Part shown: in pieces, positions 21,551 through 24,630 of the stretch
Numbering within the stretch: the stretch's first letter is position 1
Layout: each line of letters opens with the position of its first letter
Source: Candidatus Moraniibacteriota bacterium
GTDB lineage: Bacteria; Patescibacteriota; Minisyncoccia; Moranbacterales; UBA1568
DNA length: 64,000 bases
Assembly (NCBI GenBank): GCA_013336285.1
Contig: JAAXTX010000004.1
Span: forward strand, 624-64,623
Direction of reading: 5' to 3'
Notes under the pieces: generated by a model
What the model saw: the letters and a program-made list of their open reading frames with translations, nothing else
Told to the model about the DNA's origin: nothing
The model's database searches: none
Program-made: the position numbers and the translations under genes

Positions 21551-22330
21551 TTACGCGTCAAGCTCAGGAATACGCTTTGGAAGCGCATTCCAAAGCAACT
21601 CGAAAGTGAGCTTTTGAAGTTCTGCCAGCTCTTTCGACTCGATAAGAACGGCGATTTTTTCCCTCCAAGACACGATCAACATTTTGTCGTTGTAGATATT
21701 GACTTCCGGCGAGAATGACATCTCTTTCTCGGGAAGGAATCGGACAGTCCTCATCTCATCTTGATTGTGTCTCGTCCGTTCGATGGAAGCCGAATTTCTC
21801 GGAAGTATGCCTTTGCCGAAAATCCCTTTTTCGACCCTGCGTTTGTAATATTCCGGGAAGAAATCGGGCAGACCCTCGTGGATAGTCTCAATATTCGAGT
21901 ATCCCAGAATCATCCCGTCAGCAGTCAATGTGTCCTCATAAGCCTCCCGCATGCCTTTTTCTCCCTCGAAGAAACTAACTTTTGGCTTATTTGTAAAGAT
22001 ATTTTGAAGTGATACCAGTTGTGGAAGCAGTTCGGATACCTTTCGTTTTTGCTTTTCTATCTTTTTAACCTGTTCTTCTTTTTCGCGATCCAAATAGGTT
22101 AGCAGGTGTCTTGGTTCCAGGGCATTGAAGTATGTCGCGGAACCCTTTTTGAATTTGCTTACAAGACCCTTCTGCATCAGGACATCGAAGATGTCGTAGA
22201 TCGTCGTTCGATTCAGTCCGGTTTTTTTTGCGATATCATGAGCCTTACCGGAGCCGACCTCAAGCAGGGCGAGGTATACGGATGACTCTTTTTCTGAGAA
22301 ATCGAGCGCGGAAAGAAGGTTGTTTATCAT
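21551..22330 (-). CDS. TrmB-family winged-helix transcriptional regulator
   Basis: N-terminal FSEKESSVYLALLEVGSGKAHDIAKKTGLNRTTIYDIFDVLMQKGLV matches the TrmB HTH. Divergent from the ART-fold/rSAM cassette. Confidence 0.6.
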   Translation of the reverse strand: MINNLLSALDFSEKESSVYLALLEVGSGKAHDIAKKTGLNRTTIYDIFDVLMQKGLVSKFKKGSATYFNALEPRHLLTYLDREKEEQVKKIEKQKRKVSELLPQLVSLQNIFTNKPKVSFFEGEKGMREAYEDTLTADGMILGYSNIETIHEGLPDFFPEYYKRRVEKGIFGKGILPRNSASIERTRHNQDEMRTVRFLPEKEMSFSPEVNIYNDKMLIVSWREKIAVLIESKELAELQKLTFELLWNALPKRIPELDA

Positions 22331-22454
22331 ATAGTTGTGGAAAGTATTGCGACAAAATTATCATATATTAAAAGCCAAAATAATCAAAATATCGATATAC
22401 GATTCGAATAAGATTCCACAGAATCATTGAATAGTTGTATACTCAGGAGTCGAA

Positions 22455-22485
22455 TTGAAAAGCAGCTCCTTCAAAATATATAAAT
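22455..22485 (+). promoter_or_regulatory. Sigma70-like promoter (TTGAAA, 16-17 nt spacer, TATATAAAT)
   Basis: ttgaaaagcagctccttcaaaatatataaat. The transcript would include the palindromic leader at 22510. Confidence 0.4.
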
Positions 22486-22509
22486 ATCAGCCTCCTTTGA
22501 ACGTTGTGC

Positions 22510-22523
22510 CCTTCGGCCGAAGG
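22510..22523. promoter_or_regulatory. Perfect 14-bp palindrome CCTTCGGCCGAAGG in the 5' leader of the ART-fold gene (copy 1 of a shared leader element)
   Basis: Context CGTTGTGCCCTTCGGCCGAAGGCATAA..AAGGAGG..ATG. A homologous element lies upstream of the rSAM gene at 23390-23425. Confidence 0.5.
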
Positions 22524-22546
22524 CATAAATAACATAAGGAGGAAAA

Positions 22547-22849
22547 ATGGCACGGTATTTTCACGGGACAAGCAGCGCTAACTTGCAAGCAATAATGACT
22601 CACGGGCTCATCGGAGGTTTAAACCTGACAGAAGCGAGGCGCAGGAATACGGAAATCGTTTTTTTAACGACAAATTATCAGAGCGCCGTCGGTTACGCCG
22701 GGAGAAGCAAGGCGCAACGCGGCGGTAAAGCCGTGGTATTGGTCGTTTCATCTTCCGAGGCAAGACCGTGGAAGAATAAAAAAGGTTGTACTATATTTAC
22801 GGCGCCAAACGTAATAGCACAGGAAATTTGTAAGGTAATTGAACTATAA
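22547..22849 (+). CDS. Small ADP-ribosyltransferase-fold protein (H-G-T motif; resembles the Tpt1/KptA C-terminal NAD-binding lobe)
   Basis: RYFHGTSSANLQAIMTHGL at the N-terminus (the H-Y-E ART clade has [FY]HG[ST]). Later IVFLTT, AVGYAGRS, KAVVLVV and IFTAPNVIAQEI parallel the Tpt1 C-lobe blocks. Only 100 aa. Confidence 0.4.
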   Translation: MARYFHGTSSANLQAIMTHGLIGGLNLTEARRRNTEIVFLTTNYQSAVGYAGRSKAQRGGKAVVLVVSSSEARPWKNKKGCTIFTAPNVIAQEICKVIEL

Positions 22850-22862
22850 AAAGGGCAGAGAC

Positions 22863-23063
22863 ATGGGAAAAACAGAGAAAATAATTCGGATGATATTAAG
22901 AATGGCGGTTGCACCCTGCGCTCTTATCGCTCCATTCCTGATTATGTTGGGCGTGTGGTCGATGAATATCCATAACGGGGAATCTGCTGTATTGGCTATT
23001 GGTGGCGGTGTAGGTTCCTCACTCGTAGCTTGGATATGCTGGCTGCTTGAGGAACCGGCATAA
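22863..23063 (+). CDS. Small two-helix membrane protein
   Basis: MGKTEKIIRMILRMAVAPCALIAPFLIMLGVW...AVLAIGGGVGSSLVAWICWLL. The track ORF starts at 22839; the ATG at 22863 avoids overlap with the upstream gene. Confidence 0.4.
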   Translation: MGKTEKIIRMILRMAVAPCALIAPFLIMLGVWSMNIHNGESAVLAIGGGVGSSLVAWICWLLEEPA

Positions 23064-23097
23064 ATCCTTCAAGGTGGGTTCTGATACGGACCGCCGT

Positions 23098-23135
23098 GCA
23101 CCGGGATCTTAACAGATTCCGGTGCTTTATTTATC
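23098..23135 (+). terminator. Rho-independent terminator after the ART-fold/TM pair
   Basis: GCACCGG, a 14-nt loop, CCGGTGC, then TTTATTTAT. Confidence 0.45.
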
Positions 23136-23407
23136 ACGATTTATAACCATTTCCATAACGATGACTGCATGTCGTACCACTCTCCCATTTTCTCATGGCA
23201 CTTTTTATAATCGATTAACATTTAATAATTCGTGGAAGAATATTCGACAGAAAGTTGCCTTAAAAAAGGCATTAAGTATATATATTAGCCTAATAATATA
23301 AATAGTCTCTGACAACTTTTTAAAAAAAGCAGTATACTTCAGTGTTACGGTGATATACGATTGAAGCTTAAAAAATGCGAAATATTTCCCGTTTCGTCCT
23401 TGTGCTC

Positions 23408-23417
23408 TCCGGCCGGA
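23408..23417. promoter_or_regulatory. Palindrome TCCGGCCGGA in the rSAM leader (copy 2 of the shared leader element)
   Basis: Context CGTCCTTGTGCTCTCCGGCCGGAAGCATAAGAAC..GGAG..ATG aligns with copy 1 (shared CGTyyTTGTGC, CGGCCG core, AAGCATAA). Confidence 0.5.
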
Positions 23418-23444
23418 AGCATAAGAACTAAACGGAGATAGTTA

Positions 23445-24578
23445 ATGAAAAATAGTATCAGTGAAAAATCGGTCCAGCATGGACTGGAAAGAAAAAATAA
23501 CGGCAATCTCCAGACCATGTGGATCGAGTTGCCCGGCATCTGTAATCTGGCCTGCGCTTACTGCTATGCCTGCGGAGGAGACAGACTTTGTTCCGATAAT
23601 CTCCTCTCGTGGCAACAGTATAAATCGATTCTCGTACAGGCAAGGGCACTGGGCGTCGACTCCATCGGAATACCCGGTGCCGGAGAGCCGCTGCTTGGTA
23701 CGAACAGACAGCTTGCATTGTCGATTATCCGGAAGTGTTCGGAACTGGGTATTTTCGTGACATTGTTTACTACCGGAGAGTTCATCGATGAACGGATAGC
23801 TGACGAACTGTATCGGCTTCCGGTCGAAGTGATGCTGAAGGGTAATACCCTTGATCCGGAAAAGCAGGACCGCTTCGTAAGTGACCCGTCCCGCAATAGG
23901 GAAATTCGGGGCTATGGCGAAAAAAGAAATGTCGCCATCGATCTCCTGATGCGAAAGGGCTTCAACGACCACGGCAAATGCATGAAGGCGTTTGGCCGCA
24001 AGAGTCGAATGGCGCTTGTCACGAGCATCATGACTGGCGGACACGGTGAGCTTAACAATTTAGACGATGTCGTCGGGGTTCTCAGGTACTGCAGGGAACA
24101 CAACATCATATTCGACTGCGACAGCCTTCTGGAGCGCGGGCGTGGGGCGAACTGCGAGTTGTGTGCTTCCGACAGGGAACTGAAAAGTAAGCTGCTCGAA
24201 CTGCAGGAAATCGACGACGTGGAGTATGGGAATGTTTGGGGGCTTTCGCAGTCCTATGTCGGTACCGTTTGTGATCGGTACATGCATCATCTGTACGTTA
24301 CACAGTACGGCGAGGTCAGGCCGTGCATAGGTGCGATGGATATGATGTTGGGAGACCTTCACGAGACGACGCTTCAGGAGGCATGGGAGAGTGCGGAGAT
24401 GCGGATCATACGGGCAAGGAAGTATTCCGGAAAATGCGGGGATGAATGCGGCAACTTCGAAGACGGAACGTGCAATTCCTGCTTGGGGCGTCGCGTTTCG
24501 GGCCTGACCAACGAGAACCTGTTGGCCAAGGGAAGCGTCGATACCGTCGGATGCTGGAATTTCAGGGATAAGACCTGA
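23445..24578 (+). CDS. Radical SAM enzyme with C-terminal SPASM/twitch-type auxiliary Fe-S domain (peptide-modifying maturase-like)
   Basis: CNLACAYC (CxxxCxxC) with GAGEPLL. C-terminal cysteine cluster C..C....CGDECGNFEDGTCNSC typical of a SPASM domain. Confidence 0.8.
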   Translation: MKNSISEKSVQHGLERKNNGNLQTMWIELPGICNLACAYCYACGGDRLCSDNLLSWQQYKSILVQARALGVDSIGIPGAGEPLLGTNRQLALSIIRKCSELGIFVTLFTTGEFIDERIADELYRLPVEVMLKGNTLDPEKQDRFVSDPSRNREIRGYGEKRNVAIDLLMRKGFNDHGKCMKAFGRKSRMALVTSIMTGGHGELNNLDDVVGVLRYCREHNIIFDCDSLLERGRGANCELCASDRELKSKLLELQEIDDVEYGNVWGLSQSYVGTVCDRYMHHLYVTQYGEVRPCIGAMDMMLGDLHETTLQEAWESAEMRIIRARKYSGKCGDECGNFEDGTCNSCLGRRVSGLTNENLLAKGSVDTVGCWNFRDKT

Positions 24579-24600
24579 AATAAGGCTAAGCGCGGCAGTA

Positions 24601-24630
24601 GGCAGAACGTAAACCGTTCTGCCTTTTATA
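24601..24630 (+). terminator. Rho-independent terminator after the rSAM gene
   Basis: GGCAGAACG-TAAAC-CGTTCTGCC followed by TTTTATATA. Confidence 0.55.

What the first reader, a model, noticed from the sequence alone, without database searches (positions are those of the whole stretch)
21551..24630. Candidate undescribed cassette: TrmB-like regulator, minimal ART-fold protein, tiny membrane protein and rSAM/SPASM enzyme
A TrmB-type HTH regulator (21551-22330, minus strand) is divergently coupled to two short transcription units. Each unit is preceded by the same palindromic leader element.
- Unit 1 (22547-23063) encodes a 100-aa protein with an N-terminal YFHGTS motif and downstream blocks that parallel the NAD-binding ADP-ribosyltransferase-like lobe of Tpt1/KptA. 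It also encodes a 67-74-aa two-helix membrane protein. It ends in its own terminator.
- Unit 2 (23445-24578) encodes a radical-SAM enzyme (CxxxCxxC, GGEP) with a C-terminal multi-cysteine SPASM/twitch domain. That domain type is typical of peptide-maturing rSAMs.
I do not recognise the combination of an NAD-utilising ART-fold mini-protein with a SPASM rSAM under a shared operator. It could be a RiPP-like maturation system, a protein- or RNA-modification system, or a toxin-like module. The small membrane protein could be a precursor, an immunity partner or a substrate.
Basis: partly seen in the sequence, partly recalled or inferred. Interest (0 to 1): 0.8.

Follow-up and report, generated by a model that had tools for sequence, protein, structure and literature searches.

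The report
Regulated radical-SAM gene, mini-ART insert
In a Candidatus Moranbacteria genome, a regulator gene sits back to back with an uncharacterised radical-SAM enzyme gene, two small accessory genes lie between them (a 100-residue NAD-binding ADP-ribosyltransferase-fold protein and a tiny membrane protein), and both transcription units carry a previously undescribed RNA leader that hides the ribosome-binding site; all parts are real and undescribed, but what they act on is unknown.

Summary

Related loci change what the unit is. The conserved core is the regulator plus the radical-SAM gene only. A TrmB-like gene lies divergent from it in 16 of 17 CPR genome loci. A tandem Lrp/AsnC protein takes that place in 7 DPANN archaeal loci. 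The mini-ART (five lineages, always in this slot) and the 66-aa membrane protein (one homologue, in a locus without the ART) are optional inserts in one Moranbacteria-related clade.

The shared "palindrome" is more likely RNA than a TrmB operator:
- It is the invariant tip of a roughly 70-nt leader stem.
- The base of that stem pairs the Shine-Dalgarno sequence in 19 of 19 leaders.
- It shows covariation and G·U pairs, and a one-base bulge that is always on the 5' arm.
- It precedes five gene families.
- It occurs alongside several distinct TrmB clades.

A separate repeat, GTGGAA-N5-TTCGA, is the better TrmB operator candidate.

I found no support for a RiPP or defence reading. The substrate is unknown.

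The parts
21551..22330 (-). TrmB-family winged-helix regulator gene (259 aa), transcribed divergently from unit 1
   Evidence: ORF. Pfam PF01978 at E 6e-16 over residues 6-73. No match to the TrmB sugar-binding C-terminal domain. Orthologues or paralogues lie divergent from the rSAM in 16 of 17 CPR genome loci.
22337..22352 (+). Candidate TrmB operator, copy 1 (GTGGAAAGTATTGCGA), 7 nt upstream of the trmB start codon
   Evidence: The three exact matches in the window all lie in the cassette's intergenic DNA, against 0.11 expected. The same motif, GTTGTGGAAAAT.TTTCGACA, lies next to trmB in L001-L008, L045 and L083 and in L099. Its function is inferred.
22404..22419 (-). Candidate TrmB operator, copy 2 (GTGGAATCTTATTCGA on the minus strand), overlapping the -35 region of the unit 1 promoter
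   Evidence: (inverted repeat I9). The -35 hexamer TCCACA starts at 22415. Function inferred.
22415..22443 (+). Promoter-like site of unit 1 (TCCACA, 17-nt spacer, TATACT)
   Evidence: Consensus scan. The -10 context GTATACT is shared with unit 2. The transcription start near 22450 is inferred.
22491..22542 (+). Leader 1 composite stem. Anti-SD CCUCCUU (22491-22497) pairs with the SD AAGGAGG (22536-22542). The stem encloses the conserved bulged hairpin at 22503-22529, which has a GGCC loop.
   Evidence: RNA fold. Probability that the SD is paired with the 5' flank: 0.99, against 0.42 for shuffled flanks. Hairpin covariation. Covariance-model hit of 49 bits on the sense strand.
22547..22849 (+). 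Mini-ART: 100-aa free-standing Tpt1/KptA-type NAD+ lobe (HGT motif; family-invariant H6 G7 T8 E29 R31 F39 A47 G59 G60)
22863..23063 (+). 66-aa protein with two hydrophobic segments, co-transcribed with the mini-ART
   Evidence: ORF. Hydropathy. Homologue in L045 2099-2284 in the same slot: 51% identity, E 7e-17. No other relative found.
23098..23135 (+). Terminator-like hairpin and T-rich tail ending unit 1
   Evidence: 12-bp stem with 7 G-C pairs, followed by TTTATTTATC.
23232..23247 (+). Candidate TrmB operator, copy 3 (GTGGAAGAATATTCGA), upstream of the unit 2 promoter
   Evidence: Function inferred.
23309..23338 (+). Promoter-like site of unit 2 (CTGACA, 18-nt spacer, TATACT)
   Evidence: Best promoter match in the region, 10 of 12 positions.
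23383..23440 (+). Leader 2 composite stem. The 5' arm (23383-23394, UUUCCCGUUU) pairs with AAACGGAGAUA (23430-23440), which contains the SD GGAG at 23434-23437. The stem encloses the conserved hairpin at 23399-23425.
   Evidence: RNA fold with z-score -2.25. SD-to-5'-flank pairing probability 0.89 against 0.35. Covariance-model hit of 52 bits.
23445..24578 (+). Stand-alone radical-SAM/SPASM enzyme (377 aa). It has the CxxxCxxC cluster site and eight further invariant Cys, enough for two auxiliary clusters. There is no N-terminal RRE.
24600..24634 (+). Terminator-like hairpin ending unit 2
   Evidence: 10-bp stem followed by TTTATATATC.

Best explanation
The locus is a two-gene core with optional inserts.

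Core: a TrmB-family regulator is transcribed divergently from a stand-alone radical-SAM/SPASM enzyme. That enzyme belongs to an uncharacterised, highly conserved family seen only in CPR bacteria and DPANN archaea.

Inserts: in one Moranbacteria-related clade, the slot between the two genes holds extra small genes. One is a 100-aa free-standing Tpt1-type NAD+ lobe (mini-ART). The other is a 66-aa membrane protein. In this window they form their own transcription unit with a duplicated promoter, operator and leader, so they are switched together with the rSAM.

Control appears to work at two levels:
1. Inferred: the TrmB-like dimer binds the imperfect inverted repeat GTGGAA-N5-TTCGA at its own transcription start and near the divergent promoters.
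2. Structure shown by folding and covariation; function inferred: each mRNA has a leader of about 100 nt. A CU-rich segment pairs with the Shine-Dalgarno sequence, and this stem is capped by an invariant bulged hairpin, UUGUGCUnUCCGG/CCGGAAGCAUAA. Translation would stay off until a trans-acting factor that recognises the hairpin, or a cleavage, opens the stem.

The rSAM most likely acts on a small molecule or a folded protein, not a leader-peptide RiPP precursor. The mini-ART most likely binds NAD+ and transfers ADP-ribose to a phosphate-bearing or small-molecule substrate. Both of these activities are inferred from fold alone.
For: Organism: the window encodes a protein identical to a Candidatus Moranbacteria MAG protein.

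Core pair:
- More than 150 rSAM clusters of 45-73% identity, all named CPR or DPANN where named.
- 22 diverse members share 54% mean column identity.
- A TrmB-like gene is the divergent neighbour in 16 of 17 CPR genome loci and in all further loci where the neighbour can be read: L045, L068, L083, L084, L089, L093, L095, L099, L100.
- In 7 DPANN loci the neighbour is a tandem Lrp/AsnC protein.

Inserts:
- The ART is found only in the window, the P0002 contig, the L001-type loci, L099 and L100, and always in this slot.
- The membrane protein has a homologue in L045, a locus that has no ART.

Mini-ART fold.

rSAM: pLDDT 86.6. It is only generically similar to SkfB, SuiB, anSME, CteB, MoaA and PqqE, at 15-19% identity.

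Leader as RNA:
- 21 distinct hairpins with 95% of cells paired.
- 5 pairs with changes on both sides; 0 of 500 shuffles reach this; slid registers pair at 51% or less.
- One pair is G·U 12 times, A-U 6 times, G-C 3 times, and never a mismatch.
- The bulge is always on the 5' arm.
- Sense-strand covariance-model scores are 41-61 bits, antisense 15-33 bits.
- The SD pairs with the 5' flank at probability 0.74-1.0 in 19 of 19 leaders, mean 0.90 against 0.50 for shuffled flanks.
- The outer-stem sequences differ between copies but stay complementary.
- The hairpin precedes five gene families: this rSAM, a second rSAM, a B12-rSAM, an SDR-like gene and the ART.
- It co-occurs with at least five different TrmB recognition-helix variants. 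Near-identical helices (RTTxYSxLD) are seen in loci with the hairpin (L004) and without it (L009, L013, L017, L027).

Operator candidate.
Against: - No transcription start, RNA or protein data exist. Promoters and 5' ends are consensus predictions.
- The hairpin is conserved in sequence, not only in pairing, and it is nearly palindromic. That is also what a DNA operator looks like.
- Every leader-bearing gene sits next to a winged-helix regulator gene, which is what a DNA operator model predicts.
- The leader copies come from related genomes, so the covariation counts are not independent events.
- The SD-pairing control against other genes used only 15 control genes.
- The operator motif was defined after seeing it.
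- The substrates of the rSAM and the ART are unknown.
- Co-location of the ART with the rSAM may reflect one ancestral insertion followed by losses, not a functional link.
Confidence: 0.55

Rival explanations
1. The palindrome is a DNA operator. The adjacent TrmB-like dimer, or another regulator, would bind TTGTGCT.TCCGG/CCGGAAGCATAA downstream of each promoter and block transcription of both units.
For: The element is nearly palindromic, with 14 invariant positions. Every gene that carries it is divergent from a TrmB-like or other winged-helix gene. It lies at the same distance, about +55, from both predicted starts in the window.
Against: - The one-base asymmetry is always on the gene-distal arm, and its base varies.
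- G·T and T·G positions are pairs only on the sense strand.
- Sense scores are much higher than antisense scores.
- The flanks form an SD-sequestering stem whose sequence varies but whose pairing is kept.
- The element occurs with several unrelated TrmB recognition helices, and it is absent from loci whose TrmB has nearly the same helix.
- A different conserved repeat sits at the trmB promoter.
Confidence: 0.25
2. The cassette is a RiPP-like maturation system. The small membrane protein, or another small ORF in the slot, would be a precursor that the SPASM enzyme cross-links. The ART would be a tailoring or immunity function.
For: SPASM enzymes closest in fold include the peptide maturases SkfB, SuiB and CteB. 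A 62-66-aa protein with two conserved Cys (APC, ICW) lies just upstream of the rSAM in the window and in L045. Other small ORFs with strong Shine-Dalgarno sequences follow the ART in L099 and L100.
Against: - There is no RRE/PqqD-like domain; the radical-SAM motif starts at residue 33.
- No small ORF family recurs near the rSAM in 32 loci; the recurring ones are frame artefacts of conserved DNA.
- The small ORFs of L099 and L100 are unrelated to the window's.
- Most loci contain only the regulator and the rSAM.
- 45-73% identity between bacteria and archaea is unusually high for a RiPP maturase (the comparison rests on general knowledge).
Confidence: 0.08
3. The cassette is a conflict module. 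The mini-ART would be an NAD-dependent toxin or defence effector, the variable small ORF downstream its antitoxin or immunity protein, and the rSAM a viperin-like effector, all kept silent by the regulator and the leader.
For: - The ORF after the ART is variable between lineages.
- Expression appears tightly gated.
- The rSAM family has a patchy distribution across CPR and DPANN despite high identity, which suggests horizontal spread.
Against: - PADLOC gives no ART hit, and gives only generic radical-SAM-core matches to pVip.
- The L001-type loci have the ART with no downstream ORF.
- The locus sits among housekeeping genes (gyrA, rpsO, pnp), and no mobility genes are seen.
- The closest fold is an RNA-repair enzyme lobe, not a toxin.
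Confidence: 0.08
4. The rSAM is a cofactor or tetrapyrrole enzyme of the NirJ/AhbD/MoaA kind. Its DPANN partner would then be a siroheme-decarboxylase-like protein and not a regulator.
For: The best NCBIfam hits are NirJ2, a tungsten-cofactor maturase, AhbD and archaeal MoaA. The DPANN neighbour is a tandem Lrp/AsnC-type protein of about 320 aa, the architecture of fused NirDL. It has weak AhbA/AhbB matches of 24-36 bits.
Against: - All rSAM scores are 50 bits or less against cut-offs of 325-650, and they cover mainly the generic N-terminal core.
- The DPANN partner scores higher against true Lrp/AsnC regulators (50-87 bits) than against AhbA/B, and it is below every cut-off.
- In CPR the partner is a TrmB-type protein, which has no enzyme precedent.
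- No other pathway genes are nearby.
Confidence: 0.05

Closest known systems
Tpt1/KptA RNA 2'-phosphotransferase (C-terminal NAD+ lobe)
   Different: The whole N-terminal winged-helix RNA lobe is missing. [quoted passage not shown] There is a 9-residue insert carrying the family-invariant E-x-R-x-x-N. Scores are far below the curated cut-offs (22.5 bits against 231).
Arr rifampin ADP-ribosyltransferase, and the DUF952 protein CC0527 (other very small ART-fold proteins)
   Different: Both are clearly more distant than KptA. The window protein itself has no Arr-ms hit. There is no evidence for an antibiotic substrate.
SPASM/twitch radical-SAM enzymes without an RRE (anSME, BtrN, MoaA, AhbD/NirJ) and with one (SkfB, SuiB, CteB, PqqE)
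   Same: CxxxCxxC, the GGE motif and a C-terminal multi-Cys SPASM domain. Fold matches at TM 0.5-0.63.
   Different: 15-19% identity to every solved member. The family is below all NCBIfam cut-offs. It has its own invariant blocks (VQHGL, FVSDP, SQSYVGTVCDRYMHH, GCWNFR). It is confined to CPR and DPANN and is always paired with a regulator gene.
TrmB family transcription regulators (Thermococcales TrmB/TrmBL1/TrmBL2)
   Same: N-terminal winged-helix TrmB domain. The size is close to the 264-position NCBIfam TrmBL2 model. The candidate operator is an inverted repeat, as TrmB operators are (that comparison rests on general knowledge).
   Different: No detectable sugar-binding C-terminal domain. 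Scores are far below the equivalog cut-offs (44 bits against 650). It is bacterial (CPR), and several paralogues can occur in one locus (four in L004).
Leaders that sequester the Shine-Dalgarno sequence (RNA thermometers, riboswitch expression platforms, phage coat-protein operator hairpins)
   Same: The SD is paired to an upstream anti-SD. The invariant bulged apical hairpin resembles protein-recognised translational operators (that comparison rests on general knowledge).
   Different: No Rfam family matches. The stems are too stable (-19 to -27 kcal/mol) for a simple thermometer. There are no conserved internal loops of the kind aptamers have.
Radical SAM mobile pair system with a MarR-family regulator (NCBIfam TIGR04472)
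   Same: A precedent for radical-SAM genes that travel with a dedicated winged-helix regulator.
   Different: The score is 12.6 bits against a cut-off of 240. The window locus is not a member.

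Membership tests
Tpt1/KptA RNA 2'-phosphotransferase | Two-lobe architecture: an N-terminal winged-helix RNA lobe (about 85 aa) plus a C-terminal NAD+ lobe (PMC6333775) | tested here: not met
   The protein is 100 aa and aligns only to residues about 92-177 of Tpt1. There is no N lobe.
Tpt1/KptA RNA 2'-phosphotransferase | [quoted passage not shown] | tested here: not met
   R18, H19 and R68 lie in the missing lobe. Only a possible R121 counterpart (R31) exists, and it sits in a different spacing.
Tpt1/KptA RNA 2'-phosphotransferase | Curated HMM score | tested here: not met
   NF002013 gives 22.5 bits against a cut-off of 231. Pfam PTS_2-RNA does not hit the window protein.
ADP-ribosyltransferase fold superfamily | Split beta-sheet NAD+-binding fold with an H-G-T/S motif on the first strand | tested here: met
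ADP-ribosyltransferase fold superfamily | NAD+ binding and ADP-ribosyl transfer activity | not testable with these tools
   Needs purified protein.
Radical SAM superfamily | CxxxCxxC cluster motif, GGE SAM-binding motif, Pfam PF04055 above its threshold | tested here: met
   C33-x3-C37-x2-C40 and GAGEP. PF04055 gives 34.4 bits against 29.5. The motifs are invariant in 22 homologues.
SPASM-domain radical SAM enzymes | C-terminal Cys-rich domain for two auxiliary 4Fe-4S clusters (CX9-15GX4C ... multi-Cys ... C) | tested here: met
   PF13186 gives 33.5 bits against 21.5. Invariant residues are C237, C276-x12-G289-x4-C294, C331, C335, C343, C346 and C370. The order of the central Cys differs from the textbook CX2CX5CX3C pattern.
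RiPP maturase (rSAM/SPASM peptide-modifying) | N-terminal RRE (PqqD-like) domain | tested here: not met
   Only 32 residues precede the cluster motif. There is no PqqD-type hit. The model shows no extra N-terminal domain.
RiPP maturase (rSAM/SPASM peptide-modifying) | Conserved precursor-peptide gene next to the maturase | tested here: not met
   No recurring small ORF family was found within 700 nt of the rSAM in 32 loci. The 66-aa protein recurs in only one other locus.
NirJ / AhbD / MoaA / PqqE and other NCBIfam rSAM equivalogs | Score at or above the curated cut-off | tested here: not met
   The best score is 49.8 bits (NirJ2, cut-off 500). All 39 hits are far below their cut-offs.
TrmB family regulators | N-terminal TrmB winged-helix domain (PF01978) | tested here: met
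   58.4 bits against 25.6, residues 6-73.
TrmB family regulators | C-terminal sugar-binding effector domain, as in TrmB/TrmBL1 | tested here: not met
   No Pfam or NCBIfam match beyond residue about 117. Equivalog scores are 44 bits or less against cut-offs of 500-650.
Any Rfam RNA family (riboswitches, leaders, thermometers) | Covariance-model match at the leader | tested here: not met
   No hit at the leaders at E up to 1, in the window or in four related loci.
Known anti-phage defence systems (PADLOC) | Match to a defence-system protein model | tested here: not met
   The ART and the membrane protein have no hits. The rSAM has only generic core matches to pVip (31.8 bits). The TrmB matches only through its HTH.

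The most novel reading that the evidence does not exclude
The leader could be a new class of cis-regulatory RNA in CPR bacteria, either a protein-dependent translational operator or an unusual riboswitch. It would gate a small regulon of oxygen-sensitive radical-SAM enzymes and NAD-using enzymes: three rSAM families, an SDR-like protein and the mini-ART. Under this reading the mini-ART is a free-standing Tpt1 NAD+ lobe that works in trans with a separate winged-helix or substrate-binding partner. Together with the CPR/DPANN-specific rSAM it would form an undescribed modification pathway shared by the two radiations of ultra-small symbionts.
Probability: 0.2. Interest if true: 0.8.

Novelty: new variant of a known kind. 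Interest (0 to 1): 0.6.

Why it matters
CPR bacteria and DPANN archaea have tiny genomes, few regulators and mostly unknown accessory biochemistry.

- A radical-SAM enzyme that is 45-73% identical across the two domains, and that always travels with its own regulator, is a concrete and testable piece of shared symbiont biology.
- The leader is a candidate new structured RNA. I know of few cis-regulatory RNAs described for CPR bacteria.
- The mini-ART shows that the Tpt1 NAD+ lobe exists as an independent 100-residue protein. This bears on how Tpt1 arose by fusion of that lobe to a winged-helix domain (PMC6333775).

None of this yet names a substrate, so the value lies in well-defined targets for experiment, not in a solved function.

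Tried and rejected
- Rfam scans of the window region and of four related loci gave nothing at the leaders.
- PADLOC gave nothing specific.
- The word-based homologue search for the membrane ORF found only itself. It missed the L045 homologue, which tblastn found later. My interim conclusion that the ORF was unique to the window was therefore wrong, and I have corrected it.
- The metagenome scan for the hairpin returned 69 loci. Only 7 were true leaders; the rest were chance matches inside coding sequence.
- My first operator pattern assumed N4 spacing and found nothing. The correct spacing is 7-3-7.
- A covariance model of the hairpin found no diverged copies in the loci that lack it. Those loci have other short GC hairpins before the SD.
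- The comparison of SD pairing against other genes had only 15 controls. I replaced it with a flank-shuffle test.
- I looked for a conserved precursor peptide and found only frame artefacts.
- I considered siroheme-decarboxylase identity for the DPANN partner. It scored lower than Lrp/AsnC regulators.
- I considered that the bulged palindromes could be integron attC-like recombination sites, because different cargo genes follow them. I did not test this. No integrase was seen in the gene maps, and the fixed relation to the SD argues against it.
- Literature searches for TrmB in Patescibacteria, or for this rSAM family, found nothing relevant.

Full report
**1. What is in the sequence**

- a 259-aa gene on the minus strand, 21551-22330;
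- a 100-aa gene, 22547-22849;
- a small ORF ending at 23063;
- a 377-aa gene, 23445-24578.

The locus lies between gyrA (18966-21449) and rpsO (24711-25058). Two NYN-domain genes and then pnp follow.

Pfam confirms the three larger proteins. The regulator carries a TrmB winged-helix domain at E 6e-16. The 377-aa protein carries Radical_SAM and SPASM domains.

Consensus scans find a promoter-like site with a TATACT -10 box before each plus-strand unit, and a terminator-like hairpin after each.

The rSAM is 100% identical to a protein that NCBI names from a Candidatus Moranbacteria MAG. The window is therefore from a CPR (Patescibacteria) bacterium.

**2. The 100-aa protein**

It has only four close relatives among 5.8 billion clustered proteins, at 58-79% identity and all exactly 100 aa long. 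A profile search of 1.84 billion cluster representatives finds 55 proteins at E of 0.001 or better.
- The nearer ones are 95-140-aa stand-alone proteins. They share HGT, E-x-R-x-x-N, VFLT, YA-R and GG motifs.
- The remote ones carry Pfam Arr-ms, PARP or PTS_2-RNA domains.

No Pfam model reaches its threshold on the family.

The AlphaFold model has mean pLDDT 83.6. Its matches to solved structures are:
- Foldseek: best match Tpt1 from Aeropyrum, Pyrococcus and Thermococcus, at E 1e-5 and TMq 0.68.

The match covers only the C-terminal NAD+ lobe. [quoted passage not shown] The protein therefore has the fold and the NAD+-site motif of Tpt1 but is not a Tpt1.

**3. The radical-SAM enzyme**

- It has the CxxxCxxC motif at residues 33-40, so there is no room for an RRE domain.
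- It has eight further invariant cysteines in a SPASM-type arrangement.
- Its best NCBIfam score is 50 bits (NirJ2) against cut-offs of 300-650.
- PDB profile matches cover only the N-terminal core.
- The model (pLDDT 86.6) resembles SkfB, SuiB, anSME, CteB, MoaA and PqqE at TM 0.5-0.63 and 15-19% identity.

It is a distinct, uncharacterised SPASM family.

More than 150 clusters at 45-73% identity exist. Where they are named, they come from Moranbacteria, Parcubacteria, Patescibacteria, Nanoarchaeota, Pacearchaeota or "archaeon".

**4. Gene neighbourhoods**

A scan of one genome per species returned 26 loci.
- In 16 of 17 bacterial loci, the gene divergent from the rSAM is a TrmB-like protein. 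L010 is the exception.
- The same holds in the further loci L045, L068, L083, L084, L089, L093, L099 and L100.
- In seven DPANN loci the divergent neighbour is a protein of about 320 aa with two Lrp/AsnC-type units. It scores 50-87 bits against Lrp/AsnC regulators and 24-36 bits against AhbA/AhbB, below all cut-offs.
- Downstream neighbours vary.

The conserved unit is therefore regulator plus rSAM.

The mini-ART is present only in the window, the P0002 contig, the L001/L002/L003/L006/L007/L083 group, L099 and L100. It lies divergent from a TrmB-like gene in every case. An rSAM gene follows it in the window, the L001-type loci and L100. In L099 only a second leader is seen before the contig ends. 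In the P0002 contig a cut-off, unidentified gene follows. Its next-nearest relative, P0126 (135 aa), sits in an unrelated context.

The 66-aa membrane protein has a 51%-identical homologue in L045, in the same slot, in a locus with no ART. The P0002 contig has a 66-aa gene after its ART, but no DNA was available for it. L099 and L100 have unrelated small ORFs there, and the L001 type has none.

The simplest reading is an ancestral insertion of small genes into the slot in one Moranbacteria-related clade, followed by differential loss.

**5. The leader**

The two window copies are the only matches in 64 kb. The same element precedes:
- the rSAM in L004-L008, L019, L020, L025, L045, L068, L083, L084, L089, L093 and L099;
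- the ART in the L001 type, L099 and L100;
- a second radical-SAM gene (429 aa) in L004;
- a B12-binding radical-SAM gene (764 aa) in L095;
- an SDR-like gene in L008.

On 21 distinct copies, the 11-bp stem with a one-base bulge is 95% paired. Five pairs show changes on both sides, no shuffle in 500 reaches the observed values, and slid registers pair at 51% or less. One pair is G·U in 12 copies, A-U in 6 and G-C in 3. U·G also appears at two other pairs. These are pairs only on the sense strand.

The bulge is always on the 5' arm, and its base varies. Sense-strand model scores are 41-61 bits and antisense scores 15-33 bits.

Single-sequence folds of six leaders all give the same architecture. 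An outer stem joins a CU-rich segment to the Shine-Dalgarno region. A variable middle stem follows, and then the conserved hairpin. Energies are -19 to -27 kcal/mol and z-scores -1.6 to -5.3.

Across 19 leaders, the SD core pairs with the segment 5' of the hairpin at probability 0.74-1.0. The mean is 0.90, against 0.50 when that segment is shuffled. The outer-stem sequences differ between copies but stay complementary, for example CCUCCUU/AAGGAGG and CCGUUU/AAACGG.

**6. Is the palindrome the TrmB operator?**

Several observations argue against it.
- The hairpin occurs next to at least five TrmB variants with different recognition helices.
- The variant RTTxYSxLD is seen both with the hairpin (L004, gene 3895-4662) and without it (L009, L013, L017, L027).
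- A different motif, GTTGTGGAAAAT.TTTCGACA, lies next to trmB in the window, L001-L008, L045, L083 and L099. It is a 7-3-7 imperfect inverted repeat.
- In the window this second motif has three exact copies, all in the cassette's intergenic DNA, against 0.11 expected. One lies at the predicted trmB start, one overlaps the -35 of unit 1, and one lies upstream of unit 2.

This second motif is the better operator candidate, although I defined it after seeing it.

The DNA-operator reading of the hairpin is not excluded. The element is conserved in sequence, and it always lies near a winged-helix regulator gene. I give that reading about 0.25.

**7. Other readings**

- A RiPP system lacks an RRE and a recurrent precursor.
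- A defence or toxin module has no PADLOC support, and the locus is embedded among housekeeping genes.
- A NirJ/AhbD-type cofactor enzyme is suggested only by weak, generic scores.

**8. Verdict**

The ART-fold and SPASM calls are right, and neither the combination nor its parts matched any curated family or any paper in the libraries I searched.

The unit needs redefining. It is a regulator-plus-rSAM module of CPR and DPANN, with clade-specific small inserts and an RNA leader that sequesters the Shine-Dalgarno sequence.

Which steps are shown and which are inferred:
- Shown by computation: the protein folds, the gene neighbourhoods, the RNA pairing pattern and the motif statistics.
- Inferred: transcription starts, TrmB binding, translational gating and both enzyme activities.

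Noticed in passing
window 21500-21533: A perfect 15-bp inverted repeat, AAAAGAAAAACCGCC/GGCGGTTTTTCTTTT, lies between the convergent gyrA and trmB genes. It has A and T runs on either side and looks like a bidirectional intrinsic terminator. It also produced weak chance Rfam hits.
   Followed up: partly
window 25119-25625 and 25737-26516: Two paralogous NYN-domain (predicted RNase) genes lie between rpsO and pnp (Pfam E 9e-34 and 2e-25). This is an unusual insertion in the normally adjacent rpsO-pnp pair.
   Followed up: no
L004 141-7876: There are four TrmB-like paralogues within 8 kb. Two of them stand back to back, each divergent from a different radical-SAM gene (429 aa at 1585-2874 minus; the SPASM enzyme at 5001 plus). 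Both radical-SAM genes carry the same hairpin leader.
   Followed up: partly
L095 4674-6968 (minus) compared with L089 and L093: A 764-aa B12-binding radical-SAM gene with the same leader and a divergent TrmB occupies the same syntenic position as the SPASM enzyme does in L089 and L093, next to endonuclease IV-like and NrnA-like genes (identified by eye from their N-terminal sequences). The cargo appears to have been swapped behind a constant regulator and leader.
   Followed up: partly
L008 1589-2401 (minus) and 2595-3440 (plus): An SDR/epimerase-like gene carries the hairpin leader. It is divergent from a 281-aa protein that has no Pfam hit but has a winged-helix-like N terminus.
   Followed up: no
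L019 4841, L015 4924, L028 4916, L089 4846, L004 6964 (minus), L084 7773; weaker at window 23343-23353: A second leader element lies directly after the -10 box. It is a 5'-terminal hairpin that begins TGTTA(C/A)GATGA and ends ...TAAC, followed by AAG(T/C)TC.TTGAAAA. It is found before genes divergent from TrmB paralogues in several CPR classes (Berkelbacteria and Moranbacteria, with variant forms in Saccharibacteria), including cargo genes that are not rSAMs. Loop length varies from 3 to about 20 nt, which fits RNA better than a DNA site.
   Followed up: partly
L011, L012, L014, L016, L018, L023, L024 (genes divergent from the rSAM): The DPANN partner is a fused tandem Lrp/AsnC-type protein of about 320 aa. 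It has weak similarity to the siroheme decarboxylase subunits AhbA and AhbB. This is the architecture of NirDL, placed next to an rSAM that scores weakly against NirJ models.
   Followed up: partly
rSAM family (P0006-P0125; L004-L028): Bacterial (CPR) and archaeal (DPANN) members are 45-73% identical, and the family looks patchily distributed: a pattern-limited scan of one genome per species returned only 26 loci. This suggests transfer between the two domains. No phylogeny was built.
   Followed up: no
L099 1898-2077 and L100 1172-1426: Unrelated small ORFs with strong Shine-Dalgarno sequences directly follow the mini-ART. One is 60 aa and hydrophobic. The other is 85 aa, soluble, and has a CxCxxxxxC motif. 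The gene after the ART differs between lineages.
   Followed up: partly
L031, L033, L070, L075, L078, L087: The hairpin pattern also matched a conserved stretch, ...GGTGATTGCTGTTCGGCCGGAAGCATAA..., in high-GC contigs. It appears to be coding sequence of an unrelated gene. I treated these as chance matches.
   Followed up: no
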